DNA of 64,000 nt from assembly GCA_051362555.1 (NCBI GenBank), contig CM120640.1:9114001-9178000 (forward strand), given 5' to 3'. The notes under the pieces were generated by a model. It did no database searches. It saw only the letters and a program-made list of their open reading frames with translations, and was not told the origin of the DNA. The translations under genes and the position numbers were made by a program. This document shows positions 8,496 to 45,720 of this stretch, piece after piece. The number at the start of each line of letters is the position of its first letter. The first letter of the stretch is position 1. This DNA comes from Lingula anatina. Taxonomy: Eukaryota > Animalia > Brachiopoda.

Positions 8496-11400
8496 ATGGG
8501 TTCGTAAGAGTGGATCGTCCAATGGAAAACCTTACCAAATTCACCGGAGAAAATGTGAGATTACGCTGTGAAATCTCCGGCTCTCCAGTCCCACGCTACA
8601 CCTGGTTCAAGGATAATGTAACAATACAAGAGAGCAGACACAGCAGACTGAATGCCAAAGATACTTTTTGGGGATCAAGGTATTGTATGTTTCTCTGCTA
8701 AAGTTGCACTCTAAGGAGCAGGGCGTTTGATATCTCATTAAAACTTGGTCTCAGTCCTAATTGATGGTGTTTCAGTAGAAGATTTTAATGGTACACTCAG
8801 CTTGAAATGTAAAATGAAGTCTTTCTAGTTTATTTAAATTAATTACAATTTTAGTTTTACTGTTTAGTTCTACTGATGGTTTAATGAGTTGTGCTGTAAT
8901 CATTTATGCAATATTACAGGTTACGTATAAACAGTGTTCAAGAATCTGATTCTGGTGTCTACTCCTGTGAAGCAACCAATGTGTTTGGTAGAGAAAGAGC
9001 CAGTGGAATGCTGCTAGTAAAACCCGGTAAGTAGACAGAGATTTGTTTTCATTCCAGTGTATAATGACATGATTCTCAGAATTCGAAGTAATTGACTGTG
9101 TGAAGTTGGTATATAAATATAAGTCTATAATAACCACAGGAAACCTCAAGGGTTGTATTACTACATGGGATCAATAATAATGCTATAGACTTCATGTATA
9201 TTGTAAATGTTGCATTGCCTCCTTTTCACATACTTAAATGTTATCCATGCACTTTGTGTTAATGTTACAAAGAATGATGGGCGTGGATTGTTGGTTTAGA
9301 ATACTCCATGAAAAAAAACTGTTGTTTTCATATAAAGACCTGCTTCGACAAATATAGTACTTGATCCAATAAGCCAGATTATTAATTGTACTGCTGGCAA
9401 TATGTTGAAAAAAATTGTATGCTTCCCCAAACAAATATATCAGTATTATTCTCATATATTTTTCATACTTCGTCATTGCCCATATTTGTATTGAGTTATG
9501 GTCTTGATTTGCAGGTCGTCCTCCTAATTACACTCCTAGGACAGTAGAGGTGGATCCTTTCCCGAGTGGTCCGCCAGATGAGGAGACCCCCATACGACCA
9601 CCTGGCTTTGATCCATTCGGTACTGCAGCTTTCCCTAATTTCAACTACAGACCACCAGGGACAAGGTATGTAATGTAGTAGACTGACTAACTGGTGAACA
9701 CACAGCCATTGGATTATTTTTTGAGTTTTTACTCTCAGTGAGCGCAACCTTAGCTCCCTCTGGGGGCTTGTGGTTGGGATCTTTTAGATATACATGGCTT
9801 GAGACTAGTCCTTCTGTTGTTTTGGCCATATTGGAACCAAAGACTTTTATCTTGTTAGGCTTACATAGTAAGATGATGTTAAAAAACTCTTTGCTGTCCA
9901 TTATTCTTCTTTGACTTTCTTTACCAAAGCAAAAATTGCCATCTGGTTGTAATAAAAATCATTTATGAGATCTCTGTGTTCTTGGTAATATTGGGATGAG
10001 AATATCTGTATTTTGTCTTGAAAGAGAAGTCTTTTATGTCCTGTTTGATTGCAGCTGCCTGGTTTTTGGCAATGGAAATAAATATAACTTCTTTATCAGT
10101 GTGTGTATGTGTGTGGCCTTCTGCATGTAACTTTACAAACTATTTGAGCCTGTATCTTCTTTTTTCTCTACTTCCAGAGATAGCCAGCCAGGCAATGGTT
10201 TCTGCCAACCATACAGAGGAGTGTCGTGCTCTAGATTTGTTGCCAATAAAAGTATTTATGTCCTAGACAACTTCATGCAGGGCCGAGTGGAGAATCAGCT
10301 GTTAGGTTAGTCTGCAGAGAATATCTCAAAGATCTTCACAGACATCCTGGAGAGAACTATACAAATCTCTGTGCGAAGGTTTTAATATGTCTTGATTTTG
10401 GTGAAAAAAATGGCATTATTGGATTAATGGCATCTAAGTTTTCAAGTGTAGTTTAGCATTTAAAAAAAAATTTCCTCTGTTTAATGTTTATGATACTGAA
10501 GCTACAAAACAAGGAAAAGGTTTTGACTGGGGAATATTTTTATATTTTAATTGTATGAAATACTTGAAAGAAAGAGTTAAATTGAATATATATGATTTAG
10601 TTAATAATTTCCGACTGTTCACTTGAAACTTAACTGATAAACAGCACAAAGCTAGTTGAAAACAACGCAAAATCCTTAATACAGTGAATTCTCAAAATCT
10701 ATAGATCTGTTTGTAAGTCATGTAAACCATAATAGAAAAATATTTGAAAAAAAAAATTAAAAAGGGGGTCAGAGAGTATAGTATTATATATTTGAATAAT
10801 AAGTGCTTTCTAAAACTAAAATCTTCATCTCCTTTTTCAAGCTGCCATCACAGTGATAGAGCAGACGACGGAGATGTCAGAGAGGTGTGAGGAGTACGCC
10901 ATTCCCATGCTGTGTCACTTTAACTTCCCTCTGTGTGACAACAGTGGTGTGGAGCCACAGCCACGACAGATTTGTCAGGAGGAGTGTAACATTCTCATGA
11001 CTGATATGTGCAAGACTGAGTACGTGCTGGCTAAGACGCAGCCAGTGATTGGTATGTAGACGGAAATGTATCTTAATTTTAATTCAGACATAGGTTAAAA
11101 CCATTTTGGTCCTTAAACTAGTTCTAGACAGACATTTCTCACCAGCAGTGTAGTGTCTGTGTTTTTGGAGAGTGGTATTACCCAGAGACCCCACTGTGGC
11201 TCAGGCATTGAAATTTTCCACAAATGATTTTAGTTGTCTTGTGGTAATTTAAAACTGAACCTCGTTTTTACTAAACAGACCTCTGACTTACAGATTTGAA
11301 CATATGAGAAAGTTGAAAAGACTGATATGTGTTTATGGATATTTTTGTCTTAAAAAAAAAATTATAATAAGATTTAAACATTTAAAGGCAATGTTAGAAT

Positions 11401-14381
11401 ATCTGGGATAAAACTATCTGATACTAATAAATGTTTCTTGTTCTTAATATCTACTGAAATTAAATATTGAATGCCTAGGGCATTTTGATCAATTGTGCTT
11501 TACATGCATTTCACATTATTGTCTTTTCAGGTAACAGTTTATTACCCAGGTGTGAGGATTTGCCAGCCAAAGGAACGCCACAGGCTGCTAATTGTGTCAG
11601 CATTGGTCTACCTAAAGGACAAGTGAAAGTAGACACAGGAAGCCATGGTATGATATTTATATGACTCCTCTAAAATTTGGATTGAAATTTCATTTTTTTT
11701 TGCCTGGGCAGAGTTATGTTAAGTAATAAGTCATATATGCACAACATTCTGTTTGTACACTTTCTCAATGTAGGACATTAACATCCCTACCTTTCTCTCT
11801 TCTCTCTGTGTAGGTCACTCCTGTTATAATGGGACAGGCATGTCATACCAGGGGACAGTGAGCTACACAAAGTCAGGACTCAAGTGCCAGAAGTGGACCT
11901 CAAATAGCCCCCACCTTGTTACTCTGTCACTTGGCCAGTTCCCACTGCTACAGGGTACGTATAGACAGCTACAGCTACAGGAGCTCTGCAGTTAAATTTT
12001 ACCTTATTATTTCTTTTTTCTTTATGCCATTAAATAACTCACTTTACACAGTCTGAAATGTATTGGCACCAACAGAATTATTGATCATAGGCTCTCAAAG
12101 ATTGATGATGTCACTAGTGAGACTTTTCAATACTAAAAGAAGTAAGAAATTTTAAGTTGGTGATCCTAGAATTCTAGATCCTCTAACAGAGAGAAAGAGA
12201 GAGAGAGACAGTGTTAGTGAAGATACGCAAGTGGGTCAGATTATGAATATTGCCCAGTTATATGCCTTAAAGAAATGTCATTTGTAAAATATGTCCCTGT
12301 ATTTATAACAGGAGGACACAATTACTGCCGCAACCCAGGAGGACGCAAGGAAGCACCTTGGTGTTTCACAATGGATAAAATGGTGCCCACAGAACTTTGT
12401 GATATACCAAAGTGTCGTAAGTTTTATTGGCTATGCACATTTATATATTAAGGATATTGTTAGTTTGATTTGATGGAGAGTATTAGAAGCATGTATTCAA
12501 TAAGAAAAGGTGTGTATTATTAAGACAGATACTAAAGAACTTGGCTTGCAGTCTACTTGGTTCATGAATTTAAATAAATAATCTGTAACTTAAAATTTGT
12601 AGCAGTATTTAAATTACCAACTTTTTACCCAAACTTGTGGTTATTAGCAAACTTTCACAAAGAGAAAAATTAGTAAATTTGATTTAATTTTGTTAATTTT
12701 TAAATCATAGCTTTTTGTACTTCTAGCTGACCTAGTGAAGACAATAAACCAAGTGACATCTGATGCATCAAAAAACAGCTCAAACCTCAAAGAGATTCTG
12801 ATTATCGTCCTGCCCAGTGTGGCCATCCCTCTCATTTTGGCCCTGATCATTACTGTGATATGCCTGTGCTCCAGACAGAGACGCAACAGGCAAACTCCAC
12901 CAGAAGCCGCAAAATCTCCAGAACAACCAAACCAAGACATGGAGATGACTGCTCTAATCATTAAGAATCCTGTCAAAGCAAAAGAGTTTCCACGATCTGC
13001 AATTCGCTTTGTTCAGGAACTTGGAGAAGGGGCATTTGGAAAAGTTTACAAAGCAGAAGTGATTGGATTATATGGAGATAACACAGTTGGTACAATTGCT
13101 GTAAAAACATTAAAGGAAAATGCTTCACAAAAAATAGCTAGCGATTTTCGTCGCGAAGTTGAATTGATGTCTGACATGAGACACTTGAATATTGTGTGTC
13201 TGATTGGAGTTTGTATGAAAGACCAGCCATGGTGTATGCTGTTTGAATACATGCCACATGGAGACTTACACGAGTTCTTAATACGTCATTCACCACATTC
13301 AGATGTGGGTATGAATGAGGATGGCCTTGTACCGCGCCATCTTGACACCTCAGACATGTTGTACATATCAGTTCAAATAGCAGCAGGGATGGAGTTCCTC
13401 TGCAGCCACCATTTTGTCCACAGAGACCTTGCAGCTAGAAATGTTCTGGTTGGAGACAATTTAACTGTAAAAATTTCAGACTTTGGTCTTTCAAGAGACG
13501 TGTACTCATCTGATTATTATCGCTTGCAGAGCAAGGCCCTCCTTCCAGTGCGCTGGATGGCACCTGAGTCCATTCTTTATGGGAAGTTCACAGTAGAGAG
13601 TGATGTGTGGTCCTATGGAGTGTTACTGTGGGAGATATTCAGCTATGGACTCCAGCCTTACTATGGCTATACGAATCAAGAAGTGATAGAAATGATCCGA
13701 GGCCGTCAGATATTACCATGCCCTGATGGCTGCCCCAGTAGGGTATACACCCTGATGGTAGAGTGTTGGCATGAAATGCCAGCCAGGAGGCCCACATTCA
13801 ATGAAATTCACATGCGTCTAAGGCAGTGGCGTGGGGAGCTGATTGCAACCCAGTTCCCACAACATAACCTGGCTCAGAGCCATTCTGGACACTCGAGTAG
13901 TACGCAGCATAGCAGTGGCCGCAGTCAGCAGAGTCACCATAGCAGCACAGGGCCCAGTAATAACACTACCACTACAGGACTCACAGGGAGTTCAGGGAGG
14001 ATGACTGGGGGGAACCAGCCACCCCCAGGGTTCCCACCCATCCCCCCTCCCCCTGTAGGCTATTACTCAACTCCATATAGTAATGTCCCATCTCAGGGAT
14101 ATGCACAGACTGGGCAGGCACCGCCACCCCCAGGATTTGTTCATCACCCTGCTATGTATAAAAAGCCCTCTCCACCCGGCTCTGTAGCCAGTCATAAGTC
14201 ATCAAGCCATAGTTCAAGATCATCGTCCAGTAACTACAAACCCAACATGCAAAATAAAGTGCCAACCAACCAGCAACACAACGTCCAAAGCCCAGTGCAT
14301 GTCAATAATTCCATAAACGCCCGGAATGAAATGATTAAAGACAGCATGTTTATAACAGAGCCAAGACAATCAGAAATATAA
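8496..14381 (+). CDS. ROR: ROR-family receptor tyrosine kinase (Ig - Frizzled-like CRD - kringle - TM - kinase - Ser/Thr/Pro-rich tail); first/signal-peptide exon not identified
   Basis: Phase-compatible GT-AG exons: 8496-8679 and 8920-9026 (Ig: [30 protein letters not shown]); 9515-9665 (Pro-rich linker); 10178-10305, 10842-11051, 11531-11647 (CRD: [25 protein letters not shown]); 11814-11954 and 12312-12416 (kringle: [25 protein letters not shown]); 12727-14381 ([64 protein letters not shown]; TAA at 14379-14381). Confidence 0.95.
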
Positions 14382-18477: not shown

Positions 18478-21090
18478 TTAGAACAGCTTTTTCATCACAT
18501 TTAAACGCAGCATCTCTCCACACCGAGCACAGCGCGGGTAAGCCTTACTTCCTTTACGAGGGATGTGCCAACAGAAACTGCAACGCAATCTGTACTTTTT
18601 GTATCTACAGTAGAAAAAAAGGAATAATATTTAAAAAAATGAAATATTTTTAAAATTAATTTAACATCCATACAGATAAGTGAGTGACGTTTCAACTTGC
18701 ATCAAAATAGTACTACACTTAACAATTAAAAGGTGTGCCAAATGTTTCATATACTTGTTGTAATAAATTAGCTTAACATAACTTTACCAATTCATATTAA
18801 AAAAAAAAACCTTAACAGCAAAAGACGTGCAACAAAGACATCATTCTCATTTGCACAGATTACCTTATACCACATGCATTACAAAGGGGTGTTCCATCTT
18901 CTGCATCTCTCCACAGTGGAGTTTTCCTCGTGTTGCAGGAAGCACACTGTTTACCTATAAATATCAATGCAAGATAGTCCGGAAAAATAGTGTTCACAAA
19001 CTTTCTTCCTTATTTGGCATGAAACAACTAATTCACAAAACAAATGCCAAGTAAAATCAACTTATCTGTAAACAAGGATCTGGATATAATTTTAATATGA
19101 CACATAATTAATAAACAAAATATAAATGGTACATAAAAAGTCAACATAAATCATACTGGCAACCAATCAACAGAAAATGAACTAAAAAACACTCACCAGA
19201 GTGATGTGTATAACACTGGTATGGAATTCTGGTATATTTGCCCCGAGGTTCATCAGATTCGGAATCTGTAGCTGACTCACGGCTTCCACTGCTGTTATGG
19301 TGGAAAGAAAACACCTCAGCTTTGGGCCTTAATTTCCTACGATTTGTTTTGCATGGGCTGAAAAAGTACAATTTGTATCAATTTATCTTATTGGCATTAT
19401 ATCTTATAGTGCTCTTGACAATAAATTCTTAAATCGATCTTTATGAAGCATTAGTATCATACTGCCTGGTGAAAAAAGGTATTGTAATATTATTTTGCAA
19501 TACTAAAAAATAAAAAATGCCCAAAATCTAAAGCCCACCTGAAATCGGAGTCTATTTTGAGTTGGACCAAGCCTTCTTTAAACTCTGTTTTCAGACTGAA
19601 CGTTATTCCTCTGAAATCTGGGTTAGTCCTTTCAGCACTCCTCTGAGGTTTCATAGGTTTTCTTGGTGTCTTGTTCTGAACCCTTTTTTCCTTGTGACAC
19701 ATATCCTCTGGCTCTGATATGTCTTCAATTTTTTCAGCATCAGACCCCCTGTTTGAAATATGGTCAAACTGCAAGTGACTACTGAAAGGCTCAGTCAAGG
19801 GTGTCCAGCTTCCAGTCCTCACCTCGTTCTGGTTCCTTTTCAGCACCACTTCATAAGATAGATGTGAAGAAGGCTGTGACTGGTGCTGGGTACCCAAACC
19901 ATGTTTGTTGTTACTGACCAAATGCAGGTCTTTTGGGGCAACAACTTGGCGCACAGGTTCAGGAATACTTATATTTGACCAGCTAGAACTGCTGAAATTT
20001 AATAGTATTACCTAAAGGTATGCTATAAGTATTTCAAAGTGTCCCATATTTTCTATGTCTATATATTTTGCAAGCTATTCATCTTTCCCAATTTAAGACC
20101 CGAAAACTATACAAATCACTCAAATACAAGTATCTGACATTGATATTTTCCTTCTCAAATATGCAGAAAGACAACTATCAAAATTTCTGTCCAGACATTT
20201 AGAACTAAATTATATCATTAGAAGTGTTAGAAAATGTGCAAAAACAGGACAGGTTAGAGCACTGAATCTTTAGCAGGAAAAAAGCATTTTGTAGAGGTAA
20301 CTTTGATTTGATGCAAAATCATAGATAAGTATTAGAAAAAATAACTCGCTATCAAAAATATCAAAGTAAAGTGGTTTGAATTATGCACATAACTATGCAT
20401 TTCCCTAAAAATTCATTCAATAAACTCTTTAGAAAATCTGAATGTTTTGTTTATAGCAATATTGTTAATGGTGCTATCTACATGATAAGTAGCTTTTATC
20501 AGAAAACAATGAATCTTTATTCCTGAAATGTCTGTGTATAACTTATAAGCAAAATATTTCATGGAACCTTTCACAACTACCTCTGGGTACATTTCGAAAA
20601 TCTGCATCTAAGAGATGTGTTATGTTGATTCACTTAGAGCATTTTTGTTGTGAACATAATCAATTGGCGCAATTTAACAAAGAGCAAGTTATTCGTAATG
20701 CATTTGCCTACTAATTGTTTCTCTTTAAAATCGAGTTGTGACCGCCGCAAACCGGTCAATTGCGTCTGTAACACTGTAGTAAATACCCTGGGGATTTTAA
20801 CTCATTATATATAAAAATAAAGATAAAAATCGATGCATATCTTAATGAAATAAAAAACATTACCTTTGATTGAGCCATGGGAGATAAATAAAGTTTCCAT
20901 AAAATATCCCCGAGGCACGATGACTTGAAGGACTAGTGCTGGAGTTCAAGTTTCCAACCGTTCTTGAATCGTTGGCGAATACGTTGGAAAACCCTCCGTT
21001 GTTGCTTTGATTGTCTTGTGCACTTGTTTGTGAACCATTTGTGTCGTCACTTAAGAAGGAATTCCCGGTTATTTTAATTGCATACACCAT
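18478..21090 (-). CDS. ZGLP1: ZGLP1 (GATA-like zinc finger protein 1) ortholog, about 352 aa, 5 coding exons
   Basis: Exons 21090-20864, 19991-19539, 19357-19197, 18954-18864, 18604-18478, all phase-compatible. Encodes RKPMKPQRSAERTNPDFRGITF (matches the ZGLP1 RKQ..DPxFxGVT motif), the GATA finger CASCNTRKTPLWRDAEDGTPLCNACGIRYKKY, and a second C4 motif CSFCWHIPRK..RCARC. Start ATG (21090) is tentative. The finger exons are absent from the ORF track. Confidence 0.9.
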
Positions 21091-23359: not shown

Positions 23360-23720
23360 GCCTCCACTTATATTTGCATGATTTATTTCCTATCAGATAT
23401 TCCCGCCATCCATATTCCTCTCCATCCGTGACCGTTCACACCTACACAGGAAACACTTAAAATGAGCTGAGCATGCGCACATATGCGTTGTGAAGGCAAA
23501 CTAAAATGGAAGACTAGTCGAAAATCAGAATGCATCATTTAAAACTCTTTTTATAAAATACGGGAAAGGTGGGTGAAAATAACAAAACTTATAGAGCTTA
23601 AATATATCAGTATACACTAATAACTGATCTAAATGTCCATTGAGATTCTTCAACTTGTGTTAGATAGAATCGATGCGCACCCGCCGCTGCATTGCAGAGA
23701 AACCGAGAAACAGTATAATC
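23360..23720. promoter_or_regulatory. CpG-rich candidate promoter / 5' UTR region of UBE2U, head-to-head with ZGLP1
   Basis: Local CpG enrichment, NRF1-like GCATGCGCA (~23471), octamer ATTTGCAT (~23371), donor-like AAG|gtgggt (~23568). The UBE2U ATG lies immediately after an acceptor at 24521, implying an upstream non-coding exon. Confidence 0.4.
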
Positions 23721-24521: not shown

Positions 24522-24836
24522 ATGTTCTCCAGGCCTCATTTGCTGATTGAGAGAGATCTTCAGAAGATACAAAAGGATGACCTATGGGTAATGATACATA
24601 TGCCATGTAACATCAGTGATGAGTAATGATTGAAAAAAGCTCATTGTTTATTTCAGTAATATATTAATCGCTGTGTAGCAAGACTGCATTTTAATATTGT
24701 TATGATATTTAGAATATTTTAGTTCTTTGTACTTATATTAGTATTTATTACTGTTCTTACTCATTTATTTAGTTTACATTGTTCACAGCACTGAGATGCA
24801 TTTGAAGTGCATTCATTGTTTTTTCTTTATAAATAC

Positions 24837-24882
<46 letters not shown>

Positions 24883-27657: not shown

Positions 27658-27767
27658 TAATAATTGAAATAATGTAGATAGATGGACCCCCCCCATAAGA
27701 CAGCCATGGCCCATACAGTCACTATTTGCTGTGCTTATATATCTTCCACCAGGCATAAGTGAATCAG

Positions 27768-29016: not shown

Positions 29017-31496
<2,480 letters not shown>

Positions 31497-31774
31497 TTTT
31501 GTTTACAAATGCCTTATTCAAGACTTTAGTTTCGTATCTGAAACTAACTTGGAATAAAGTGCTAGCTCTATCGTTGAGGATTTGGTGTCCAACAATGTAC
31601 GCCACATTGTGGAGGATGTTTTCCCATCATCCAAAGATAAGAAAGGGACACCACAAAAGTTAAGAATACAGGTGACCATCAGAAATTTTGTTTATGAAGT
31701 TCTAAGTCCAGATGGCCAGGTTGGTATGAGGAATATTAAGTTATTATCAAGTCAACTTGAGATCAAAATCCAAG
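31497..31774. promoter_or_regulatory. Bidirectional promoter between FDX2 and CACHD1
   Basis: Divergent start codons (31496 on -, 31775 on +) are only 278 bp apart; CpG-rich; both ATGs lie in YY1-like AAnATGGC contexts (AAAATGGCTGC; CAAGATGGCCGC). Confidence 0.75.
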
Positions 31775-34700
31775 ATGGCCGCTGCAGGTTTAGTTGTTTG
31801 GTGCAATGTTTGCATATTTCTTTTGGCTTTGCTATCTGAAAGGACTTGTTCTACACAAGATAAAGAATTTTCTCCCGGTGCTACGGAGTCTGACGCCCTC
31901 AAGTTACGAAATGAAGGATACACAAGTATTAAAACTCCTTCATATTCTAATGAGGACGAGTGGACGTATGCAAATTCAGGAGAGCAAGTTGATCCTAAGA
32001 AGATGCTAATGGGAGGAATTAACCTGCAATGGGAGGCACGGAAACTTATTTCTGCCTTTAGGAACTTAACCAACGAGGAAATGGGAGTAACATACCTGCA
32101 AGTGAGTGAATAGTTTTATTATATGATACATATCATATGACATTTCACTTATTTTGATGTAGTGACTAGTCGGCCGTGATGAGTGTATCGTTTCTAAGTA
32201 TCATCACTGTATGGTGCTTATTTCAAGTTATTATTTATGCAATTTTTGTATTTAGACTGATAATAGTTTTCAGTTGATTTCAACAGTTAAGGACAGATGT
32301 AAGGACTTGAATCCTAACTCTGACAAGTAAAGATGTTTGGGATATAATGGGGTGTAGTGGACACATAAGATTTACATGCTTCAAGGCTCTTGTCAACTGT
32401 TAATGGGTGTGGTGTGAAAACTGACTTATGATTATATCATTCATGGCCAAGTGTCATTTTCCTGGAAAAAAGAGCATAATTTCTGATAAATAACAAAATA
32501 AAATCCATCATTATAGCCAAATATTGGAATTTATATTTTTTTCACCATTTATTACTAACTGGTAAAAACGCCTTGTATTCTTTTGATAAAATATGACATT
32601 CTATTAAGTCAGTAAATTGATTCCATTTTTTCAGGGAATTTATGACTCACTGTCCTATGATACCACTGCAATAAGAGAAGAAGAAGTCATTAAAAAGGTG
32701 AATTAAATCATTTATATCAATATTTATTTTTGTATTAAGTGTACACAGAAAATAATCCAGAAAATGTGTCTTATTTACGTTTTGCTTACCAGTTGAATGT
32801 AATATTAGAATATAAAAATGCTGTATTGTATCCGTGTACACCCCATAAACAAATATTTCCTTGATATGTTTAGTGCTTGAGTTTGCATACCTTTAATGGA
32901 AACATGGCTTTTGATCTGAAAAAGCAAGGCACTTCATATGCTTTTATTAAAGAAACTATTATTGTTTGGAGGATTTTATTGCCTTGGATGTGTTTTGCTA
33001 AAATTTTTTTTCACTTTCAGCTTTCTAAGAAGTTAAAAACCAAGTTCCAGAATTATTTAGACATCCTGGATGCTGTCAAGAAGAGAGTAGAAAACCTGTA
33101 CAATTTCCATTTGCTACGCCCTATCACACAGGCTTTTGACTGTTGTAATTTGACTGATTATGGCTCAAGGTAAGTGGTTCATTTGACACGAAAATGTTAA
33201 AATTGGTAATAAGTGATGCCTTAATTGTGTTTCTCCCCATTTTCCCACTTGTTAATTTCAATCGTACATTTTGCTGCATTCTTGAAATATATTTAATGAA
33301 CTGTTTTTCTTTTTTTCAGCCCAGAGAACCCATTTTATACAAACATGTCTAAGCTAGTCACATGTGATTTTCTCCCGCCCCACTTGTCAAAAGATGCTTT
33401 CAATCCAGGAAGAAATCTCACAGAAGGTATTTTGACAGGACATGGTTGTTACCATAAACTTAGTTACATCCAGTGGAGGCTGACATAAGCAAACATGGTT
33501 TTTAACTTTGTACTAGGAAGAAAGATATCATTGGATAATTCAAGTTTTGAAAGTTAAGATTACTGATATTGAGTTTTTTTCTAGCGAGGGAAAAATGTAG
33601 CTGTCATATAAAGTTATAAACATTTCATCTATTGTATAACCTTAGTGTAATAAATAATAAACAATAATATTGTTGACACAGTATAACTTGTCCCTTCACT
33701 CTTACTTCGTTGTTTCAGTTTTCAAAGGAAATCAGAATGGCAACCCCCAACTAAAATGGCAGCTTATGTGGCAGTATTTTATCTCAGCCCAAGGTGTTCA
33801 CAATGAGTTTCCTGCACATGGAGTAAGGGAAAACTGTCCTAAGTTCTATGATGCTAGACACAGGTAAAATGGCTTATTGGCTTATGATGATCAATAGAGT
33901 AAAGTGACTAGTAGGATTATTCTGGTTAACACGGTTTAAAAACTCCTTCATTGGCAGAGGTAATGACTGGTGGGTTTATGATGATTGAAACCAGTTCAGT
34001 GACTGTTTTACTTCCACCCTTTGGTCTTACACAAACTTGCAAACATCATAAATGTAAAATTAAAATAAATAATGAACTTTAAAATAATTCTTAGTTGTCA
34101 TTGATCTAGACCAAAATTTACATTAGACTGACCATTTGAAAAGTTAGTTAAAGCAAATTATACAAGTGCTTGTTCTGTGTTATTCCACAACAGAGCAGTA
34201 AAGCTGACTTTCTAGATAGCCCATCATGTTCTGATTCTACTGTTCCAGGGACGTATATGTGAACACCTTACAACCCCAGACTAAGAATGTGGTGTTGGTT
34301 CTGGATCAGGGGAACTCCCTTAGTTCTAACCAGCTGAAGACAGTGAAAGCAGTGGCTAAACACCTGCTAGGGTCCCTGTCAGAGCATGACCGAGTAAGCA
34401 GAAAAAATTTTAGATAACATGTTGCAGTGTGTTTAGATATTATTTTATTTTAAAAGGATTATCTGAGTATGCTGTCAACTGATTGATTTATTTGAATAGT
34501 ATTACATCAGTGCATAGTTAAAGGTACATACGAACCGAGCATCGGTGGAGTGTGGATTCCCAGTAACACATGGAAACCACTTCTACTAGTTTCTTATACA
34601 ACTCAAATAAATTCGACATGCCAAGGGATAAACTGAATAGAGCACTCGATCAGCCATAAAAGAGCTTTAGACTGCTCCTTTTTATGTACAGACACAGATG

Positions 34701-37700
34701 TGTCTGTACATATAGCCATCATCTGCGTCTGTCGTCGCTGTCGTCGCCGCCGTCGCCTTCGCCGTGCACTTTTACCGATAACACGATAAGTGGAAAACCA
34801 TTTTACCTTTTGACTTGAAACTTGCAGAACTGATGAATATTCATAATACGCAGGTCAAGTTCGAAAATCAGCGTGATCGGGTCACTTTTAGGTAATTTAT
34901 GCTGTTTTTTCACTATTTTCAATATAAATGCAACACTGATAACACAATATAAGAAAAGCGGATTGGCCAATTGTAATTATACTCACAGGAGTGGTCAATC
35001 TTACTAAAACGCAGGTTGAGTTCGAAAATAAGCATAATCGGGCCATTACTTAAGAAGTTATACTGTTTTTTCACATTTCCTCAGATTCAATTGTTAGGCA
35101 TGTTAACAGTCTCATTATTTAACTAATAAGATGCCTAAAAGTGTTTGTTTGATATTTCCTGCATCTTTACAACATTGTTAGTTGATTATGTAAAAAACAT
35201 GGTAAACTTGTTATCATGTATTGTGTAATAAAGTGTCAAAAATGGAAATAAACTCATATCATTGCAGTTTGTCAGATTCAATCATCCACTATGTTCAGAA
35301 TCTCAGAATGGAGGAAATTGGACATTTAACACTGTTCTATTGATACTTTTCCCATCTCATCAATTTTCTTAGTTGGACATATAAAAATGGCAGTAAAATG
35401 TGTATTTTGTTTTATGTTAAAAAAGTGTTAAAAATGGAAATAAACCCATTTCAGAACAGTGCTGTCTTGTTTACATTTTGGCATTATCAAGGCGTGACTT
35501 TGAAGTTCCATGGGCCTGAAGACCTTTGCTAGTCACATTTTCTGAATATCTGTGATACAAATATTTTATAATTAAAAATTGATGGTCATTAAGCTGTTAA
35601 ACATTATGTAATATTGCATCAAAATTTGAAGAAACCCCCATTTTGGGCACTGCTTCCATGATGACCATTTAAGGAAAATCATGTCACTTACTGTTTTCAA
35701 ACTTACAGGATAGAAACATGGGACTAAAATACAGCTTCAGTAGGCAATGCAGTCTGTTTGGTTTTTTTTTTTTTTTTTTTTTTTTTGGCAGTTAAACAGT
35801 TTTTTGTGAAAATTTAATTTTTCACATATTGGCATTTTCAAGGTGTGACTTTAAAGTTCCATGATCTTGAAGACTTTTGCTTGTCACATTTTCTGAATGT
35901 CCATGTTACTAATATTTTATTAATAACATTTGATTGTCATTATGCTGTTAAACATTATGTAATGTTGCATCAAAATTTGAAGAAACCCCTATTTTGGGCA
36001 CTGCTCCTATGATGACCATTTAGGGAAATCATGTCACTTACTGTTCTCAAACTTACAGGAAAGAAACATGGGTCTAACATACAGCTTCAATAGGCAACGC
36101 AGTCTGTTTGGTAAATTTTTCTGGCAATTTAACAGTTTTTTGTGAAAATTTAATTTTTCACTTATTTGCATCTTTATTTTCTGTTCTTTGTCTGTACATT
36201 TGACAGCTTTGCTGCCTTGTTTAAATTTTTGGTCAGAAATTTAACCTACTTTCGTGACCTACTTTTCTGCCTCATTGACATACAGCATAGATTACTAGCA
36301 GAAAAATCCATGCAAACATCATTTTCGGTTAAAAATAAACAATGCCTTTTGGTAATTCTCTTAGTTATACTACTTCAAACTATATGTTGGCATTTGGTTG
36401 GTTTTTGTGACAAAAAATTGACTTTGTATGCATCTTTAATTACAAAACATTAAGCAGAAAAATCAACACAAGCTTAGAATTGGCATACCTTTCTAAAAAT
36501 TTTTTTTGGGGGGGGGGGGCGATTCAGCTGGATTGTATTAATCTTGTAAGTTAGATAGAAGGAACATTCACTTAATACCATGTTTACAACATTGTTTTCT
36601 AGGTTGGGCTGATAGGAGTATCTAATACAATCGGACATCCTCGGGATGATGAAGATCCGTGTGTGTCCAACAAACTGGTGCCTTTCACACTTGAAGTAAA
36701 ATACTACTTTGAAAAGTTTATCACTGAAGCTGTTAAACAAGATGGTAAGAATATTTATAAAATCCATTGACCGTATAAAATGTATTGAACTAGCAATGAA
36801 GGATCTTCTGGAGGAGCTATAACATAAGTAGAAAATTTTAACTTATTTTATGTTTGTGGGCAGTCACTTGTAAACTGAGCATCCACTAATGTTATAATTT
36901 TAGCTCCAACCAACCACTCCCTGGGGCTGGAGACGGCGTTCAGAATGATCAGAAGTACACTGCAAGAGCATGAAAATCAAACTATAAAGGGTGAGTTTAC
37001 TTTTGATTTTCAGCTTCATATAAACAAACACACATTTAGTGCTTTTATATATAATAGAATCAGTGAGGTGTGTTTCTGTGTGTGTAAGCAAGTTATACAC
37101 AGTCTCAGCATTTTTGTTCTCAACACCCCCATTGCATGAGGGTGGTTTTTAAATTAGAAAGAAATAATTGTATTCTAGAAGAAAGGCTTCTTGATATTTA
37201 TTTAAGAGATAAAACCACTTGTATATTTCAGAAGATGCAATGATAATGTATATCAGCAGAGGTCTGCTGACATCATTAACTGATGCCAAAGATGTGATGG
37301 AGGTGATAGCAGTGGAAAATGGGAAACTAGGCAATAAGGTGGTCATTAACACATATGCCGTCATTGGTGGTAAGTCTCACATTAAAACTAGTATTGCTTA
37401 CATATGTATACACTCTAATTTTGCCATTATCTGTTAAAAGATCTAACAAAGTCAAGATTTCTGACATGAAAAGGCAGGATATATTGTGCCTTCTGTGGTT
37501 TCCAGATGGCAAACCAGTGATGTTTGAGAAAAGCTTCTTGGAAAATGTGGCTAACCAGAATTTTGAGAAGTACGATGTCCAGAGCAGGCATCCACTGCCA
37601 GTTAGGGTAAGTGATTCATGTAGGCATATTCTGTCAGTTAGGGGGAGTTATTCATGTAGGGGCACCCTGCAAGATAGGGGGAGTAGTTCTTATAGGCATA

Positions 37701-40700
37701 CTCTGCTATTTTGGAGAAAATAGCCATCCTATTAATGTGCCACAAAATTGATTAATTCAAGCAATGCCAAGTCAGGTTTGAGAGTAACGCATGCAATATA
37801 TTTTTATTCTATTTACATTATTTGCATATTACCATTGACAAATGCTTCCTCTGTGTTTATAGAACACATGCCAATACACAGTGTTAATATACCAACTTTT
37901 AAAAAAATTTGCTTTCTATCTTCAGCCTGGGCAAAGCCTCTCTGTGAACACCACCGACTCTCTGAGCACAACAGTGGGTACCTTCTTCCAGGCCTTTAAC
38001 AGGTCAATAGAGGACAGGCCACGGTTCTCACTGCCCTATGCTGACCAGACAGGGGCAGGTAGGTGTGCTTCTGGGTTATCACCAGATACCTGTCACACTT
38101 TGAGGAAAAGGAACATTATCATATACAGTTTGGTTTTAGTATATGTGTTTCATTCAATCATGAACTGAGTTTGGATGATTACATAAGAATGAGAATTACT
38201 TGGTGAACATTATAAAGCCCCTTGCTGTCATACTGTCTATTACTCGAATATGACCAGAATATTCTGTGTACATATGGTGTTTTTCTACTCTGTTTTAGGC
38301 CTTGTCATGAGCATCAGTCAGCCATGTCTACACCAGGGGAAGGTGTTGGGTGTGGCAGGGGTGGATCTTCACTTTGGAGAGATGGTGGAAGACATCACAT
38401 ACTTTCAGCAAGAAGTATTTGCCTATGCATTTCTCCTGGATCAGCATGGTGAGTAGAGTTAGGGGGAAGACTATTTTACTTTGTCGTATAGACACTGAGA
38501 TACCAGTTCATGGTACACTATTGAAGAAAAATCAGAATATGATGCAAGTAGGCTCAAAGTATTTAAACTGATACTCTTGATTAAAATTATCAAAACCAAT
38601 TGCCAATACCCCTAGCCTTGATTATTTGTTGCTACAAGTAGATTATGATCTGTTTCATATTAAGCTGTATACTTAAGTGATACAGCCTGTACTGGTATAC
38701 TTTGAAAGATTGACAATTTAATTTTGGACCTATCAAAGTGTACCCCATCAAAGACCGTATTTTATACTGCTCAACCTGAAAAGGTTACATGATTGTGACT
38801 TTACTGTTCAGATTGAGCAGTATGCAGTGCAAAAACACAGACTGGAAACTGCATTAAATTGCCAGTGTCATAGTTTTATAGGATGTTATATCATGTTTAT
38901 ACAGTGTGAGAAATACCAGCACTATGTACATCATATTTTTTCCAGGTTACATGGTGATGCATCCATCCCTGTCCCGTCCCATCTTCACCAAATACCAGCC
39001 TATGCACACAGATGTCAGCCACTTTGAAAACTATGAGGGCTTTGAGAGGGTGAAGCATATGATTTTAAGGTAAAAGAATTGCATCTTGTGTGAAGCATAG
39101 TGTAGAAGAGCTAGATTTTATGGTCTTTTATACAGGTATGGAAACTGCATGTTTCAATTGTATTGTTTTTTGTCAGTCTGTGTAGTTTGGACTCAAAAAT
39201 GCTAACCCACCACTTCAACCCCTTATACAAATATTATGATAGTAAAATTGATGATGAGGATGATAATAACCTTATTTTTACTCACTTGAATTGACATTTT
39301 GTCCAAAAGAAAACAATTACATTCCAGTATATAACAGTTGCTTACTCATAAGTTTGTTAGCAGTGGTTAACCTGTCTGCTATGTTGTTCCAGTGCCACAG
39401 AGGGCAGGACCAGTCTGACAGTACACGCCAAGGAAAACACGCAGTCCAACCTCTCCCTGCTGCCTGATGGCAAGACTGTCATCTACAGATATCTGTGGAA
39501 GAGGGTAAGGAATAGAACCACATGTTATAAAGTGTAGTGCTTGCCCTTGGGACGTGACGACCACCTAAAGAATGGTGATAGTCTGAATGGAAATATTGAT
39601 CTAACAGGACTCTTTCGTTTTTTGAAATGCATTAAAGTACAAAAGATCTGAGAAACATGAAAAGACTAGCTAGAATTGTTCTAACTGAATTACAAGACAC
39701 TAATTGTTTTGGGGTTGAAAAATGTCATAGGTAATTTTTGTAACTTTTTTTCTTTTTTAGATCGAGAATACACCTTTCATCCTTGTTCTTAAGGTTGCAG
39801 TGGATTCTGAGTATTCTGGTGTAAAAAATGCACCAGGTAGGTATTATAAGTTCAATGAGAAGTAGAATCTTTATTTACAAATATATTTCTGGGGGCAAAT
39901 ACTCCCATGTATGCACTTATTCTCCTGAAATACAATGAATCAATCATAAATACCTAGCAGATTATAACATGTTTCACCTGTATTTATTTCAGTGCCCAAC
40001 TCGCTGCTATATCACCGCCTAGATTTGATTCCACATAATACCTGCATGCACCTCAAACAGCTGGCTACACTAGGTGAGAGAAATACTGGTACATGAAAAG
40101 AAAGATAGATAAAGAAAATTAATTTTTTGTCTTGTCTGAAAATTGGTTAATGAACTGGGTATTGGTTACAAAAATGTGATATATGGATTCGTAGTCTGTA
40201 GCAGTTTTAACCAACCCACGGAAATGTGTTTAATTTCTTATAGTTCTTACAATTCATATTGAAAGACAGTTGACAGAGTTTATGTATATTGAATCCTGTA
40301 TATTTTTGTCTTTTGTAGAGGCCAGCACTGTGTTCCTCTCAGCATCAGCTTTCACCAGTCCCTTTGAACATCTCAATAAGCCAGAGAATAAGAAAGATGC
40401 CAAGGAAGTGGTACAGAGTTATGTGGCATATCTTGGAGATGATACAAAACTGATAGCTAATCCAGGATTAAAGGTAATCTCCTGAACTTCTTTGAAAAGT
40501 TTCAGGATTGATCTTGTCATGACTTTTTAGATTTTAACTTAACCCAAAGAGTAAGTGTTGAGTGTAACTAACAAGTTTTGAATCAAAGTCATATGAGGGC
40601 TTTAGTGAAATTATTTTAAAAAAAACATTATTTGAAAGCAATTATCCTGTTTGCCGTGCTGCATTTCCATGATTTCTCTTTCCTCTCCTCACAGCCTGAG

Positions 40701-43700
40701 GTAAGAGATGATGTGGCTGCAGTGTCCAGAATCAACTCACAGTGGCTGCAGCAGTTCAAGAAGAGCAAGCTGAATGATTACATTGTCAGAAGGTAGGTGT
40801 TCTGTCTTGTTTTTGCTTTTAGAGATGACCTTGTAGCAGTCACAAGATCTAGCCTCAGTATTATGTTCACAGGAAATGGCTGAGAGTTTCAAGTGCATGG
40901 ATTTTAGTCTCATTACTGTATAAGAACGAAAATGATCTCATGTAGCAGCCAACACCAAAGTTCCTTACATTTTTGAAGAGTAGTTGGTGTGTTAAATTTG
41001 TATTTAATTTTTGTGTTGAATATTTCATTAAGTTTGTGTTCATTGTTTGTGTTAAATATTTTATTTCCTGTTGGATATTATAGATATGTGGCCACCCCAA
41101 GTGGAGTGTTTAGGCTGTTTCCAGGTGGTTTGATAGAGAAGAAATTTGACCCAACCAAGAGACCCTGGTAAGTTATTATCACATAGTCAAGATACATTAC
41201 TTGCATTTCTAGCAAAAATCAAGAACAGTCCCCAATGTTGTTTCCACTGCAAATGAATTTACAGAATAAAAATTTTGGGACTAATGTTTTGTGCCCAGTG
41301 AATTTAAACCTATTTTGATGACCTTCAACTCCAGGTATGAGCGTGCCATTGAGAACCCAGGCAGTGTGGTGCTGACAGAGCCCTACCTAGACGTGTATGG
41401 AGCAGGCTATATAGCCACCATAAGTCACACAGTATATGAGGGGAGGTAAGAGAATTATACATGGGCTTCACTGAACATACAGTATTGTTATATGATTTAA
41501 AATATGATTTTGTCAAGTTACTACTGTTTTGGTGTCATGATATAAGAACATAATCACAATAATACCAATGTGAAATGTACTAAACTATCACAGTACATCC
41601 AATCTGATGATTACTACTCTCTAGCATTCAAAACGAATGGCTGATTGCATTTTATGGTCACTGCTCATTAATTAAAATTCTTTTTGAAATGATCTCAACA
41701 CGACCCATCCATTGTATTGTAGACCTGGTGGCAAGCACAGTTCCTCTGACCGTATAGTAGCTGTGATGGGTATTGACATCACCATGCGGTATTTCTACAA
41801 GCTGCTCAGGGAGGCCATGCCACACTGTGAGGACAAGAATATAAGGTAGGCTGTGGGGGTTGGATTTATATGTCGCGGATTTTATTTGACATACTCATTT
41901 TCCTACAGAAATGTGAGATGTGATACACAAAAAAATTACTTAAAAGCTTTTGAGAATAAACTTTTGAGAATAAACATTCATAATTCATTTTTCAAAGAAG
42001 AGTAGCAATTGAATACACTACAGAATAAGTGCTTTAACATACTACAGTAATTTGGCAGACAATAGAAGGTTGATGGCAGCTTGCAAGTAGCTTTGTCTGC
42101 ATGGCAGAAAAAAGTACTACTCAACCCACTGGTTACCATGTGTCTATCATTTTTGGTGACTGTTTGAAACCTGGAACATTTTTCCTTTCCAGGTGTTTCA
42201 TTCTGGACAATAAAGGCTACCTGGTGGCTCATCCTGGCCTCATAGAACCCAGTGAGAATGGACCAGAAGAACAGAGACACATCACACGTATGGAGTCCCT
42301 AGTAGCCAATGATATACTACATCACAAAGGATTTGTGGAGAAGAAACTTTGTAACAGCTTCAGTGATAGGACCATTCAGAGATATTACCATGTAAGTAGG
42401 ATAGGATGGATTGTTGAAATACTTAAGAAAGGCATTTGTTAAACTAGTTCTTTTCTTTTGAGTGTGTGATTATCTTGGTAAAAAAGTCTTTTACGTTTTC
42501 TTTTTCTATTTTCAGTTTAACAAAAACATCACTGGTGTGTTGACAAATATGAAACATGGGGAACATTGTGTAAAGTATCAGGTAAATAAATTATCACTTT
42601 TTTATTGAATTTAAAATCATGTCCAGCATTTTGGTTGTGTTGTAGATAGACTATGTGTTTGCTTGTTGAAAAATATATGTGAAATGTTAATGAACTTGTA
42701 TTATTGTAATTTTTGTTCTTCTTGTTTTCTTCTTTATATTGAATATTGTAGGTACAAATCACACATAAATTGGTTGTTTCATTCCAGATAACTGCCATCC
42801 CTTGGTCTAACGCCTTCCTTGGTATTGTTAACCAAACATGTAACATGATGAAAGCTTTCTGTCCATGCAGTGTGGTAAGAAGACTGTTGTGCCATTGAAC
42901 ATAACAAGCAAAACTGGAGAATTTCATCATCATTTATTCAAAGCATCTGCACAGGCCATGTCTGATTACAGTGAAGACTTGTGGCTTCTCTCAACTGATG
43001 CAATAATAAAATGTTTTTGATCGTTAACTGAGATATTTTGCATTGGTAATGTCTTGGATTTTTGCAAAAACAACAGACACTTTCCTAATTTTTAGTTTTT
43101 ACTGACTGCTTACGTTTTTATTATTTATATATTTACAAAAAAGTTTATGTTTGTAAACTTTATATATTAAATTTTATGAAAAACTTGTGCTCCAAAAAAT
43201 ATGAATGAAGGAATGATTAAATCCTTAAATGAATAATGAATTTTCAAAAACGTAATGATAAAAAAATAAGGCAGGACTGAAGATTGTATATAATATAATA
43301 CATATGATATATTCACAAGGTTGATCGGAAATGCCTGAACTGCAAGCGTATGGAGCAGAGTGAGTGTGAGTGTCCCTGTGAGTGTAAACTAGAGATGGAC
43401 TTCTGCACTGGGGACCTGCTGAGTGATGAAGACAGGTGAGTGGTCTGATGCCTCTGAGAAAATATTCCAAATGAAATAAAAATTCGGGGTGAAATGTACA
43501 TGGACATTTGCTGATTCTTTGTTGAAAAAGGGCTTCATTAGCAAGATACAAGAAACACCAAGACATTTGAAGTAGTTATTATATTTAAGGATCATTGTTT
43601 GTCAATCAGTTCATAATTTTAGATATTAGAGTTGTTATATAAATCACCACTAATTTTATGGATGTTACAGTGCTGAAATTGTCTTCTTTCATTGAGACAT

Positions 43701-45720
43701 CGTAAAAGAACGCCCTAGAGAGCAATTCATAATGTTTTGAAAAACGTGCCAAAACGCACTCAAAACTTAAATTCAGTTGCATAAAGATTCAGATTTTGAG
43801 CAGGGACATTATGGAACAGGCCTCCCAGGAGAAAAAAATTGAAGATTGCAATAATGCACCAACAGTCCCTCATGTTTATGATGATTGAAAAACATGAGGC
43901 AGCCTTTGATCAGCTACATGATTTTTACTTAAAATGTGTAAATATATTTAAACAGTATATCAATGTATCCTGCAGTCTGTATCATTGTGTACCTTGCAGT
44001 AACCCTAGCTGTCCGCGGCATGCAGAGCCTGTGTCCCTGGTCACTATCCCTGAGGAGGTGAAGGCCAAACTGCACCAGTGTGTGCCCACCAACTGTGGGG
44101 ACAGGAAGACTGAAAAGTAAGGCTGAACTTGGGGCAGGGTGAAAAATTGTGGTGTCTTAATATTTAACAGATTAATAAGTGAAATGAAGTTATATATATT
44201 GTGTGTGTGTGTTTGTGCAGTTTAGACATGTATAGAACAGTATTAGATGCTGGTTACTTGTGTGACAATCTTTATAAGTGAATTTTTTAAAAACTTGCTT
44301 TGTATTTAAAAGAAAAGATATTAATGTGCAATATATTGATATGTTCCCAGGGACTGTTTTGGTGTCCTCAACTGTGAATGGTGTGTGAGGGAGAAAGACT
44401 TCAACACCCTGCTGAAGAAGCCATTTTGTACCAATCAAAATGTCTGCTTTGGTGGTGTGCTGGGAGCTGCCACTCCTTATGGTGATCAAGTCAGAGGTGA
44501 GAGCATTTTGATGTTTTAAATATATAAATTTATGTTCCAAAGTGCATTTTTCATTCATTCTCATAATTAAGTCTCACTGTTGTTGAATGTTAATATACTA
44601 TTACTTGGCATGGTGTATACAGTTCCCATAATTCTTTAATTTCATTTTGCTTATATTGCTTTAATTTTAAATAACCAATTCATTTAATGTAGTGTTCATT
44701 ATCAAATTCACATGGGTAGATGGCAGTATGGGCTTTTTTAGAAAAAAAAAAATTTCAGCTGTTGACAAGAACTCTTTCATCAACACGTTCATTCAGCATC
44801 AGGTTGAACAGTTAGTACACTTTCCATTTTTAGTGGTAACCCAGGAAGATGAAAGTATATTAGGTAAGACCACCCCTGTGGGTCCAGTAGCAGGGGGGAT
44901 CATGGGTGTGTTCCTGGTCCTAGTCCTGGGGATCTACTGCTACCGTCACCATGTCCACCGCACTGGTCATCAGTATGTCACTGCAGTGCCAGACACTCAG
45001 GTCAGGATGTCACAGCTGGACAATGAACCTGAGGAGCTTGAACCTGAAGAGATTGGCACAGGTAGAGTCTTTACTTTGTTTGTCATTGATCAGTACTATT
45101 TTATTGCTAACACATAACACAGTGAAGCTGAACTGTTTTCTTTTATTACTGCTATCAGTAATTCTATTTCATAATGACAAAGTTCAGAGCAGTGGTGGTT
45201 GTAGTAGGATCAGGAATTATTTCACAAATAGCGTCTCATGTGGGTTATTTATTTCATAATCATACAGTACTAAATTCCTTTCTTATCAGGTCACACCAAC
45301 ATAGTCTTAGCAACATTTGACACACCTGCCAGTATTTCTCCATATAGAGTGAACCCTAACTACAGACGACCTCCAGCAGGGGGCGATAGTGATCACGGCT
45401 ATAGCACCATGACTCCACAGGATGACAGTGAACAGGCCAGCATGACCTGCATTGAACCTCTGATTACAAACAAAGACAGAATAAACAAATACAAAGCACA
45501 GCAATATATTGGGACGAGATTACCCACAATCCCTCCGCCTCCTCAGTCTGCTCATAGGCGTAGTCGCAGCACCAGCAGAAGTCCTACACCAGCACAGCAA
45601 GGAGGGACTTTGTTACCGGACGATATTTGTAAGCCTCCAGTTAGTGAACAGACAATACTACCTCAGGATCCACACTGCGTGATAGCTCCCGTCACAGTGC
45701 ACATGGTGGATACACATTAG
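31775..45720 (+). CDS. CACHD1: VWFA and cache domain-containing protein 1 (alpha2delta-like), 29 coding exons
   Basis: Exons 31775-32101, 32635-32697, 33021-33169, 33320-33426, 33719-33863, 34249-34393, 36603-36744, 36904-36990, 37232-37369, 37506-37606, 37926-38058, 38299-38448, 38946-39069, 39393-39504, 39761-39836, 39993-40073, 40319-40473, 40695-40792, 41084-41167, 41335-41445, 41723-41845, 42193-42391, 42516-42581, 42788-42874, 43320-43435, 44000-44116, 44351-44496, 44834-45061, 45290-45720. Signal peptide; VWA with variant MIDAS (VLVLDQGNS); cache motifs FDPTKRPWY and EPYLDVYGAGY; CECPCEC; TM VGPVAGGIMGVFLVLVLGIYCYRH; cytoplasmic DSDHGYSTM; end APVTVHMVDTH*. Confidence 0.93.
34679..36222 (+). 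mobile_element. Non-autonomous Helentron-associated element (HINE / pearl / DINE-1-like) in CACHD1 intron 6
   Basis: 5' T-run, then palindrome ATGTACAGACAC-agat-GTGTCTGTACAT (34684-34711), a (GTC/GCC)n microsatellite (~34730-34765), internal tandem cores (~160-bp pair at ~34848/35010; ~350-bp pair at ~35476/35827), 3' subterminal repeat TGTCTGTACAT (36189-36199), short hairpin GACAGC-ttt-GCTGCC, and terminal TTGTTT. Confidence 0.75.

What the first reader, a model, noticed from the sequence alone, without database searches (positions are those of the whole stretch)
8496..45720. ROR-ZGLP1-UBE2U-FDX2-CACHD1: an apparently intact pre-2R block that interleaves two human paralogons
Seen in sequence: ROR(+), ZGLP1(-), UBE2U(+), FDX2(-), CACHD1(+) are consecutive within about 37 kb. 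From established knowledge (recalled): human 1p31.3 carries ROR1-UBE2U-CACHD1 co-oriented and followed by RAVER2 and JAK1, while 19p13.2 carries co-oriented ZGLP1-FDX2 (FDX2 upstream, with a known readthrough) near RAVER1 and TYK2. Deleting ZGLP1 and FDX2 from this block gives the chr1 order and orientation; deleting ROR, UBE2U and CACHD1 gives the chr19 one. Inference: this is the ancestral bilaterian microsynteny block, resolved by reciprocal gene loss after vertebrate genome duplication. Its persistence suggests regulatory constraint (shared promoters, or ROR/ZGLP1 enhancers in bystander genes).
Basis: partly seen in the sequence, partly recalled or inferred. Interest (0 to 1): 0.85.

Follow-up and report, generated by a model that had tools for sequence, protein, structure and literature searches.

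The report
Brachiopod block interleaves two vertebrate paralogons
In this lamp-shell (brachiopod) genome five genes sit side by side that jawed vertebrates keep on two separate chromosomes, so the stretch is likely a relic of the gene order that existed before vertebrate genome duplication split it by losing alternate genes from each copy.

Summary
ROR(+), ZGLP1(-), UBE2U(+), FDX2(-) and CACHD1(+) are five intact, spliced, expressed genes in that order. The window is a Lingula-like brachiopod (99% protein identity to L. anatina), and ROR starts at 2131, upstream of the stated start. Orthology held for all five by best hit. The key cross-paralogon link ZGLP1-UBE2U recurs: consecutive submitter accession numbers in three amphioxus species and Mytilus edulis (4 of 9 such sets), and same-length scaffold in 18 of 19 invertebrate species. 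UBE2U-FDX2 recurs tail-to-tail in one annelid-like metagenome contig. ROR-ZGLP1 and FDX2-CACHD1 could not be tested outside Lingula and rest on parsimony with vertebrate orders. Published synteny pairs chicken chr8 and chr30 as duplicates of the second, jawed-vertebrate duplication, so the split is probably younger than 'pre-2R' implies. The block looks broken in several spiralians. The enhancer-in-bystander idea got no support; two head-to-head promoter pairs are the likelier glue, untested. This is a neat new example of a known process, not found in the papers searched.

The parts
2131..14381 (+). ROR receptor tyrosine kinase: signal exon 2131-2218, 6277-bp intron, then Ig, Frizzled, Kringle, TM and kinase exons (8496-14381)
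   Evidence: Pfam I-set, Fz, Kringle, PK_Tyr; best PDB hits ROR1 E 3e-122 and ROR2 1e-118, against MuSK 8e-94; RNA joints
18478..21090 (-). ZGLP1, 5 coding exons, 352 aa, one GATA finger plus a second Cys4 module; 3' reads run on to about 15950
   Evidence: 350/352 identical to Lingula P0259, eight-cysteine pattern; top hits are named ZGLP1 or carry uninformative or generic GATA names; RNA
20501..23568 (.). ZGLP1/UBE2U head-to-head region: two CpG-rich patches (20501-22000, 22501-23500); UBE2U 5' UTR exon ends at 23568
   Evidence: CpG o/e 0.89-1.2 against 0.38 for the window; joint 23566-24520
24522..27657 (+). UBE2U, 9 coding exons, 363 aa, E2 core with HPN and catalytic-position Cys90, plus a conserved C-terminal extension
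   Evidence: 361/363 identical to P0122; best PDB hit 1yrv E 6e-37, next 1e-23; tree follows the species tree
29017..31496 (-). FDX2 mitochondrial ferredoxin 2, 6 exons, 194 aa
   Evidence: exon 3 matches only human FDX2 chains (2y5c, 8rmc) among PDB sequences; RNA joints
31497..31774 (.). 278 bp between the FDX2 and CACHD1 start codons, candidate bidirectional promoter
   Evidence: distance, and CpG o/e 1.07 at 31001-31500; divergent RNA reads on both sides
31775..45720 (+). CACHD1, 29 exons, 1350 aa
   Evidence: one exon matches CACHD1 8s7c at E 4e-28, nothing else below E 0.99; open model

Best explanation
The five genes are neighbours here, and this order is likely the one of the last common ancestor of spiralians and chordates, which jawed vertebrates likely split by losing alternate genes from two duplicated copies: ROR1, UBE2U and CACHD1 stayed on one copy, ZGLP1 and FDX2 on the other. 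Shown: the five genes, their order and expression; ZGLP1 and UBE2U with consecutive accession numbers in amphioxus and mussel; UBE2U-FDX2 tail-to-tail in a second animal. Inferred: that ROR and CACHD1 flanked this core in the ancestor (parsimony with human ROR1-UBE2U-CACHD1); that the two surviving segments are the sister copies of the second (jawed-vertebrate) duplication; and that the order lasted partly because two head-to-head pairs share promoter DNA (FDX2/CACHD1, 278 bp; ZGLP1/UBE2U, a likely germline pair), with slow rearrangement doing the rest.
For: Intact models and best-hit orthology. Consecutive ZGLP1/UBE2U accessions in B. floridae, B. lanceolatum, B. belcheri and Mytilus edulis, 4 of 9 submitter-numbered sets; Lineus RefSeq numbers are 2 apart. 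L009: UBE2U(+) then FDX2(-). Vertebrate orders from PMC5618647, bioRxiv 10.64898/2026.07.26.740788 and PMC12102022. A paddlefish gene model fuses FDX2 (residues 57-172) upstream of the GATA finger (829-861), which fixes their co-orientation. Chicken chr8 and chr30 are listed as a pair of CLG-L chromosomes from one 1R lineage (PMC12284397). UBE2U/CACHD1 depth ratio is 2.2 and 3.4 in the two ZGLP1-positive runs against 0.8 and 0.1 in the two negative runs.
Against: 5 of 9 submitter-numbered sets are not consecutive (Owenia 781, Mactra 670, Pinctada 491, Sinanodonta 1121, M. galloprovincialis 1873 apart), and Amphiura has the pair on different chromosomes. L009 has an otopetrin and no ZGLP1 in the 10 kb upstream of UBE2U; the other 5 loci of 7 kb or more show none of the neighbours. 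Accession numbers give neither strand nor distance, and are only a proxy for position. Same chromosome is expected from macrosynteny alone. ROR-ZGLP1 and FDX2-CACHD1 were not seen in any other genome. The stored, cut part of the 49-genome microsynteny table of PMC8851819 lists no invertebrate block with these genes. Six surviving copies for five genes is what average post-duplication retention predicts (5.4), so the loss pattern needs no special cause. The expression contrast is confounded with study and rests on 4 runs of unknown tissue. Human strands, ROR2, and the location of ROR1-UBE2U-CACHD1 on chicken chr8 are recalled.
Confidence: 0.72

Rival explanations
1. The order is ancestral but held by nothing: Lingula, amphioxus and mussels simply rearrange slowly, and the block is a neutral relic.
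For: The pair looks separated in several spiralians and in Amphiura and in L009; every cross link was broken in jawed vertebrates; no non-coding similarity between the window and L009.
Against: Adjacency kept between amphioxus and spiralians is far above chance (about 2e-5 to 2e-4). PMC3514665 reports that such pairs are mostly head-to-head and argues for cis-regulatory constraint (passages). FDX2/CACHD1 start codons are only 278 bp apart.
Confidence: 0.35
2. A genomic regulatory block: enhancers of ROR or ZGLP1 lie inside UBE2U, FDX2 or CACHD1, and this holds the five genes together.
For: ROR and ZGLP1 are developmental regulators next to housekeeping-type genes; ROR1-UBE2U-CACHD1 stayed together in human; CACHD1 has a 2.2-kb CpG-rich intron.
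Against: The bystander introns are short (largest 494 bp in UBE2U, 1225 in FDX2, 2209 in CACHD1), against the long-intron prediction of PMC3514665. All four blastn matches to L009 lie on exons. The only long intron is ROR's own (6277 bp). One distant comparison has little power.
Confidence: 0.15
3. Only the core ZGLP1-UBE2U(-FDX2) is ancient; ROR and CACHD1 came to flank it in this order independently in brachiopods and vertebrates by shuffling on one ancestral chromosome.
For: No direct sighting of ROR or CACHD1 beside the core outside this genome; L009 shows neither.
Against: It needs ROR upstream and CACHD1 downstream of UBE2U, in the same order as human, to arise twice.
Confidence: 0.12

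Closest known systems
Conserved ancestral microsyntenic pairs (CAMPs), Irimia et al. 2012, PMC3514665 (passages read; supplement not available)
   Same: Unrelated neighbours kept across phyla, mostly head-to-head; the paper proposes reciprocal loss from duplicated regions as a way to dissolve co-regulated pairs.
   Different: Here a five-gene run whose four adjacencies are all broken in jawed vertebrates and survive only as skip-one pairs. I could not check whether their list holds it.
CLG-L paralogon (JAK1/TYK2/JAK2/JAK3, PDE4, S1PR, LEPR), PMC12284397 (section 7 and passages read)
   Same: Same vertebrate segments: chicken chr30 carries ZGLP1-FDX2-RAVER1-TYK2 and is paired with chr8.
   Different: That work uses gene families with surviving paralogs; CACHD1 and ROR1 do not occur in its main text. 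This block links the segments through single-copy genes.
Vertebrate ZGLP1-FDX2 linkage, PMC12102022 and bioRxiv 10.64898/2026.07.26.740788 (passages read)
   Same: FDX2 and ZGLP1 linked and co-oriented from fish to mammals.
   Different: Here UBE2U lies between them on the other strand, so the vertebrate adjacency and the fused FDX2-ZGLP1 gene models would be derived.
Genomic regulatory blocks
   Same: Developmental genes next to bystanders, old linkage.
   Different: No long bystander introns and no conserved non-coding DNA detected.

Membership tests
ROR family RTK | Ig-Frizzled-Kringle ectodomain, TM, tyrosine kinase domain closest to ROR1/2 | tested here: met
ZGLP1 | single GATA finger followed by a second Cys4 module (eight cysteines), far closer to ZGLP1 than to GATA1-6 | tested here: met
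   pattern in the window and in 103 of 120 hits; 68-76% identity over the C-terminal region to 8 ZGLP1 hits; canonical GATA fingers score about 30 bits each; no tree with GATA1-6 was built
UBE2U | E2 core closest to UBE2U, single-copy tree matching the species tree | tested here: met
   the tree held no other E2 families; 1yrv = UBE2U (alias MGC35130) is recalled
FDX2 | mitochondrial 2Fe-2S ferredoxin closer to FDX2 than to FDX1 | tested here: met
   exon 3 hits only FDX2 chains; 65% identity to paddlefish FDX2; one exon only against PDB
CACHD1 | VWA/Cache type I membrane protein closer to CACHD1 than to alpha2delta | tested here: met
   (one exon, only CACHD1 hit); full model
Ancient microsyntenic block | tight linkage in several distant phyla | tested here: met
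   met for ZGLP1-UBE2U (brachiopod, chordate, mollusc, nemertean; accession proxy) and for UBE2U-FDX2 (two animals)
Ancient microsyntenic block | whole five-gene order and strands in a second invertebrate genome | not testable with these tools
   no animal genomes were searchable; L009 ends before it could show CACHD1
Reciprocal loss after whole-genome duplication | the two vertebrate segments are paralogous copies of one ancestral linkage group | tested here: inconclusive
   literature pairs chicken chr8 and chr30 and puts ZGLP1-FDX2 on chr30; that ROR1-UBE2U-CACHD1 lies on chr8 is recalled; no vertebrate genome was searched
Genomic regulatory block | long bystander introns | tested here: not met
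Genomic regulatory block | conserved non-coding elements in bystander introns | tested here: inconclusive
   none against L009, a single distant comparison
Bidirectional-promoter pair | divergent starts under about 1 kb apart (threshold recalled) | tested here: inconclusive
   met for FDX2/CACHD1 (278 bp between start codons), not for ZGLP1/UBE2U (3431 bp, two CpG patches)
Bidirectional-promoter pair | one element drives both genes | not testable with these tools
   needs ATAC, CAGE or reporters

The most novel reading that the evidence does not exclude
A five-gene unit, intact since the bilaterian ancestor, is held by two divergent promoter pairs, one of them a germline module (ZGLP1 with UBE2U). 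It was unzipped gene by gene between the two subgenomes of the jawed-vertebrate allotetraploid, is still intact in lampreys or hagfish, and left orphaned halves of the shared promoters beside human UBE2U, CACHD1, ZGLP1 and FDX2.
Probability: 0.2. Interest if true: 0.7.

Novelty: new member of a known kind. Interest (0 to 1): 0.45.

Why it matters
It gives gene-level resolution of how one ancestral stretch was divided between two vertebrate chromosomes through genes that have no surviving paralog, which ohnolog-based maps cannot see. It suggests that the conserved vertebrate FDX2-ZGLP1 adjacency is a by-product of losing UBE2U. It also points to an old link between ZGLP1, an oocyte-fate regulator, and the little-studied UBE2U, which is testable in amphioxus, mussels and cyclostomes. 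The process itself is known.

Tried and rejected
No whole genome was held for the window, and the metagenome records could not be searched beyond the fetched loci. A single UBE2U exon query found only the Lingula protein. The search among protein representatives and the protein atlas never ran because the machines were busy, so ROR, FDX2 and CACHD1 accessions of other species were not obtained. RefSeq XP numbers were rejected as evidence against adjacency: the B. floridae pair is consecutive in the JGI set but 340 apart in RefSeq, true Lingula neighbours are 12 apart, and Acanthaster numbers mix two scaffolds. Same-chromosome matches were not counted as microsynteny. Only two vertebrates were in both hit lists (sterlet, a poison frog); both show different contigs, but ZGLP1 sits on small scaffolds, so this is a weak control. 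Accession-prefix search of papers gave two unrelated hits. Supplement searches of PMC4595640, PMC7269912, PMC9238270 (3 files not searched), PMC11136973 (1 file not searched) and PMC8851819 (cut) found none of the gene names; PMC3514665 had no readable supplement. PMC11047327 names ZGLP1 only in its references, and PMC8731227 gave only the 19p13.2 gene list. No indexed RNA holder was listed; same-species raw runs were laid instead. Four look-ups of earlier scan findings were empty. A PDB search with one SPO11 exon found nothing.
Full report
Observation. Six-frame reading and exon building gave five complete genes with canonical splice sites and no internal stops: ROR(+), ZGLP1(-) 21090-18478, UBE2U(+) 24522-27657, FDX2(-) 31496-29017, CACHD1(+) 31775-45720. 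RNA reads from seven same-species runs confirm strands and the listed joints. They add a ROR exon ending at 2218, whose ATG at 2131 opens a signal peptide, and a UBE2U 5' UTR exon ending at 23568. ZGLP1 is 350/352 and UBE2U 361/363 identical to Lingula anatina proteins, so the window is a Lingula-like brachiopod.

Gene identity. The kinase is closest to ROR1 and ROR2, well above MuSK, with Ig, Frizzled and Kringle exons. The GATA exon retrieved 518 proteins, of which 120 were listed. Their names are ZGLP1 or uninformative, apart from a few generic GATA labels and two FDX2-named fish models; none is named GATA1-6. The eight-cysteine pattern is present here and in 103 of those 120. The E2's best PDB hit is 1yrv at E 6e-37, the next at 1e-23 (that 1yrv is UBE2U is recalled). 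Its named animal homologs are called UBE2U or hypothetical (120 of 187 listed), and a tree of 34 rows follows the species tree with one vertebrate clade, without other E2 families as outgroup. One FDX2 exon hit only FDX2 chains and one CACHD1 exon only CACHD1. The first refutation test, wrong orthology, was not met.

Vertebrate side. A figure legend lists human PGM1, ROR1, UBE2U, CACHD1 in order (PMC5618647, passage). Birds carry ICAM5-ZGLP1-FDX2-RAVER1-TYK2-CDC37, on chr30 in chicken (bioRxiv 10.64898/2026.07.26.740788, passages; PMC12338730, passages). ZGLP1-FDX2 linkage holds in zebrafish, mouse and human (PMC12102022, passages). A paddlefish model fuses FDX2 ahead of the GATA finger, so the two are co-oriented with FDX2 upstream, as in the window. 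PMC12284397 (section 7) names chicken chr8 and chr30 as the pair from one 1R lineage of linkage group CLG-L and describes such pairs as products of the second, jawed-vertebrate duplication. PMC7269912 (passages) places that event after the lamprey split, with mean retention of 38.9% and 15.1% on the two subgenomes. Human strands, ROR2, and the place of ROR1-UBE2U-CACHD1 on chicken chr8 are recalled, not looked up.

Other invertebrates. No animal genomes could be searched, so I used two proxies. Scaffold length: ZGLP1 and UBE2U share it in 18 of 19 invertebrate species where both turned up; Amphiura is the miss; two hybrid amphioxus sets and the M. galloprovincialis records were left out. Most are whole chromosomes and show only macrosynteny; four are under 6 Mb. 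Accession order: among nine submitter-numbered sets four are consecutive (B. floridae XP_002601404/5, B. lanceolatum CAH1244044-47, B. belcheri KAI8509137/8, Mytilus edulis CAG2207499/500) and five are 491 to 1873 apart (Pinctada, Mactra, Owenia, Sinanodonta, M. galloprovincialis). RefSeq numbers are unreliable for distance, but Lineus is 2 apart and one hybrid amphioxus set is consecutive. Some misses may reflect non-positional numbering, others real breaks; I cannot tell them apart. Counting amphioxus once, chance co-occurrence is about 2e-5 to 2e-4. A metagenome scan gave 29 UBE2U loci. Of the six of 7 kb or more, one, L009, has FDX2 tail-to-tail after UBE2U as in the window. Its UBE2U groups weakly with annelids, and an otopetrin gene, not ZGLP1, lies upstream. 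The other five show no neighbour of the block. ROR-ZGLP1 and FDX2-CACHD1 remain unseen outside this genome.

How it likely came about. Each of the two links seen elsewhere joins a gene of the human chr1 set to one of the chr19 set, and ZGLP1-UBE2U is seen in both chordates and spiralians, so the interleaving is old. Removing alternate genes gives both vertebrate orders. The simplest history is an ancestral run ROR-ZGLP1-UBE2U-FDX2-CACHD1, duplicated twice in vertebrates, with ROR1, UBE2U and CACHD1 kept on one sister copy of the second duplication and ZGLP1 and FDX2 on the other. Six surviving copies for five genes matches the 5.4 expected from average retention, so the alternation may be luck.

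What holds it. FDX2 and CACHD1 start 278 bp apart beside a CpG-rich patch; ZGLP1 and UBE2U start 3431 bp apart with two such patches. ZGLP1 reads were present in 3 of 7 runs, all of one study, and absent from the other four. UBE2U was higher relative to CACHD1 in the two positive than in the two negative runs that covered it; tissue is unknown and study is confounded. A pearl-oyster paper finds zglp1 in female gonad clusters (PMC4082630, passages). I favour shared promoter regions plus slow rearrangement. The enhancer-in-bystander model predicts long bystander introns (PMC3514665, passages); these are short, and the only DNA shared with L009 is exonic. A neutral relic stays a serious rival, given the apparent breaks.

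Prior knowledge. Ten full-text searches showed no paper describing this block. One search listed 40 of 60 papers, none of them with a ZGLP1/FDX2 term together with UBE2U or CACHD1. The readable, cut part of the microsynteny table of PMC8851819 has no such invertebrate block. Unread supplements, above all that of PMC3514665, and subscription papers could hold it. The kind of thing, ancient microsynteny dissolved by reciprocal loss, is known.

Verdict. Real, correctly identified, and probably ancestral; the timing is refined and the regulatory part is unproven. Interest 0.45; new member of a known kind.

Noticed in passing
window 45693-46227: A 35-bp minisatellite of 15.3 copies (91% matches) begins inside the last codons of CACHD1 and repeats the stop-codon region into the 3' UTR.
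   Followed up: partly
window 28100-28310: A short dispersed repeat with 21-nt inverted arms between the convergent UBE2U and FDX2 3' ends; it draws many reads from other loci. Possibly a MITE.
   Followed up: partly
window 15300-18477: ZGLP1-strand reads extend about 2.5 kb past its stop to about 15950, almost meeting the ROR 3' UTR.
   Followed up: no
window 12990-13835: The ROR kinase keeps HRD and DFG motifs where human ROR1 has HKD and DLG; it may be closer to an active kinase.
   Followed up: no
window 49699-50400 and 52235-52966 (-): Two single-exon, cysteine-rich secreted-type frames with pacifastin/VWC-like repeats.
   Followed up: no
window 54512-58993 (-): SPO11/TOP6A-like exons (Pfam TP6A_N and Toprim; further exons): a second germline gene about 35 kb from ZGLP1.
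   Followed up: partly
window 62910-63935 (-): Exon(s) with a weak protein 4.1 C-terminal domain match (E 2e-4, below the Pfam cut-off), probably the end of an EPB41-like gene.
   Followed up: no
window 665-2218 (+): Reads upstream of the ROR start codon in CpG-poor DNA; the ROR promoter may lie outside the window.
   Followed up: no
P0200, P0205: Full-length UBE2U-like proteins occur in a unicellular eukaryote (label Nk52) and a chytrid fungus, hinting at an old family possibly tied to flagellated cells.
   Followed up: no
P0005, P0071: ZGLP1-like proteins in a scorpion and a spider, so the gene is not confined to spiralians and deuterostomes.
   Followed up: no
L009 3751-5130 (+): An otopetrin gene upstream of UBE2U, in place of ZGLP1.
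   Followed up: yes
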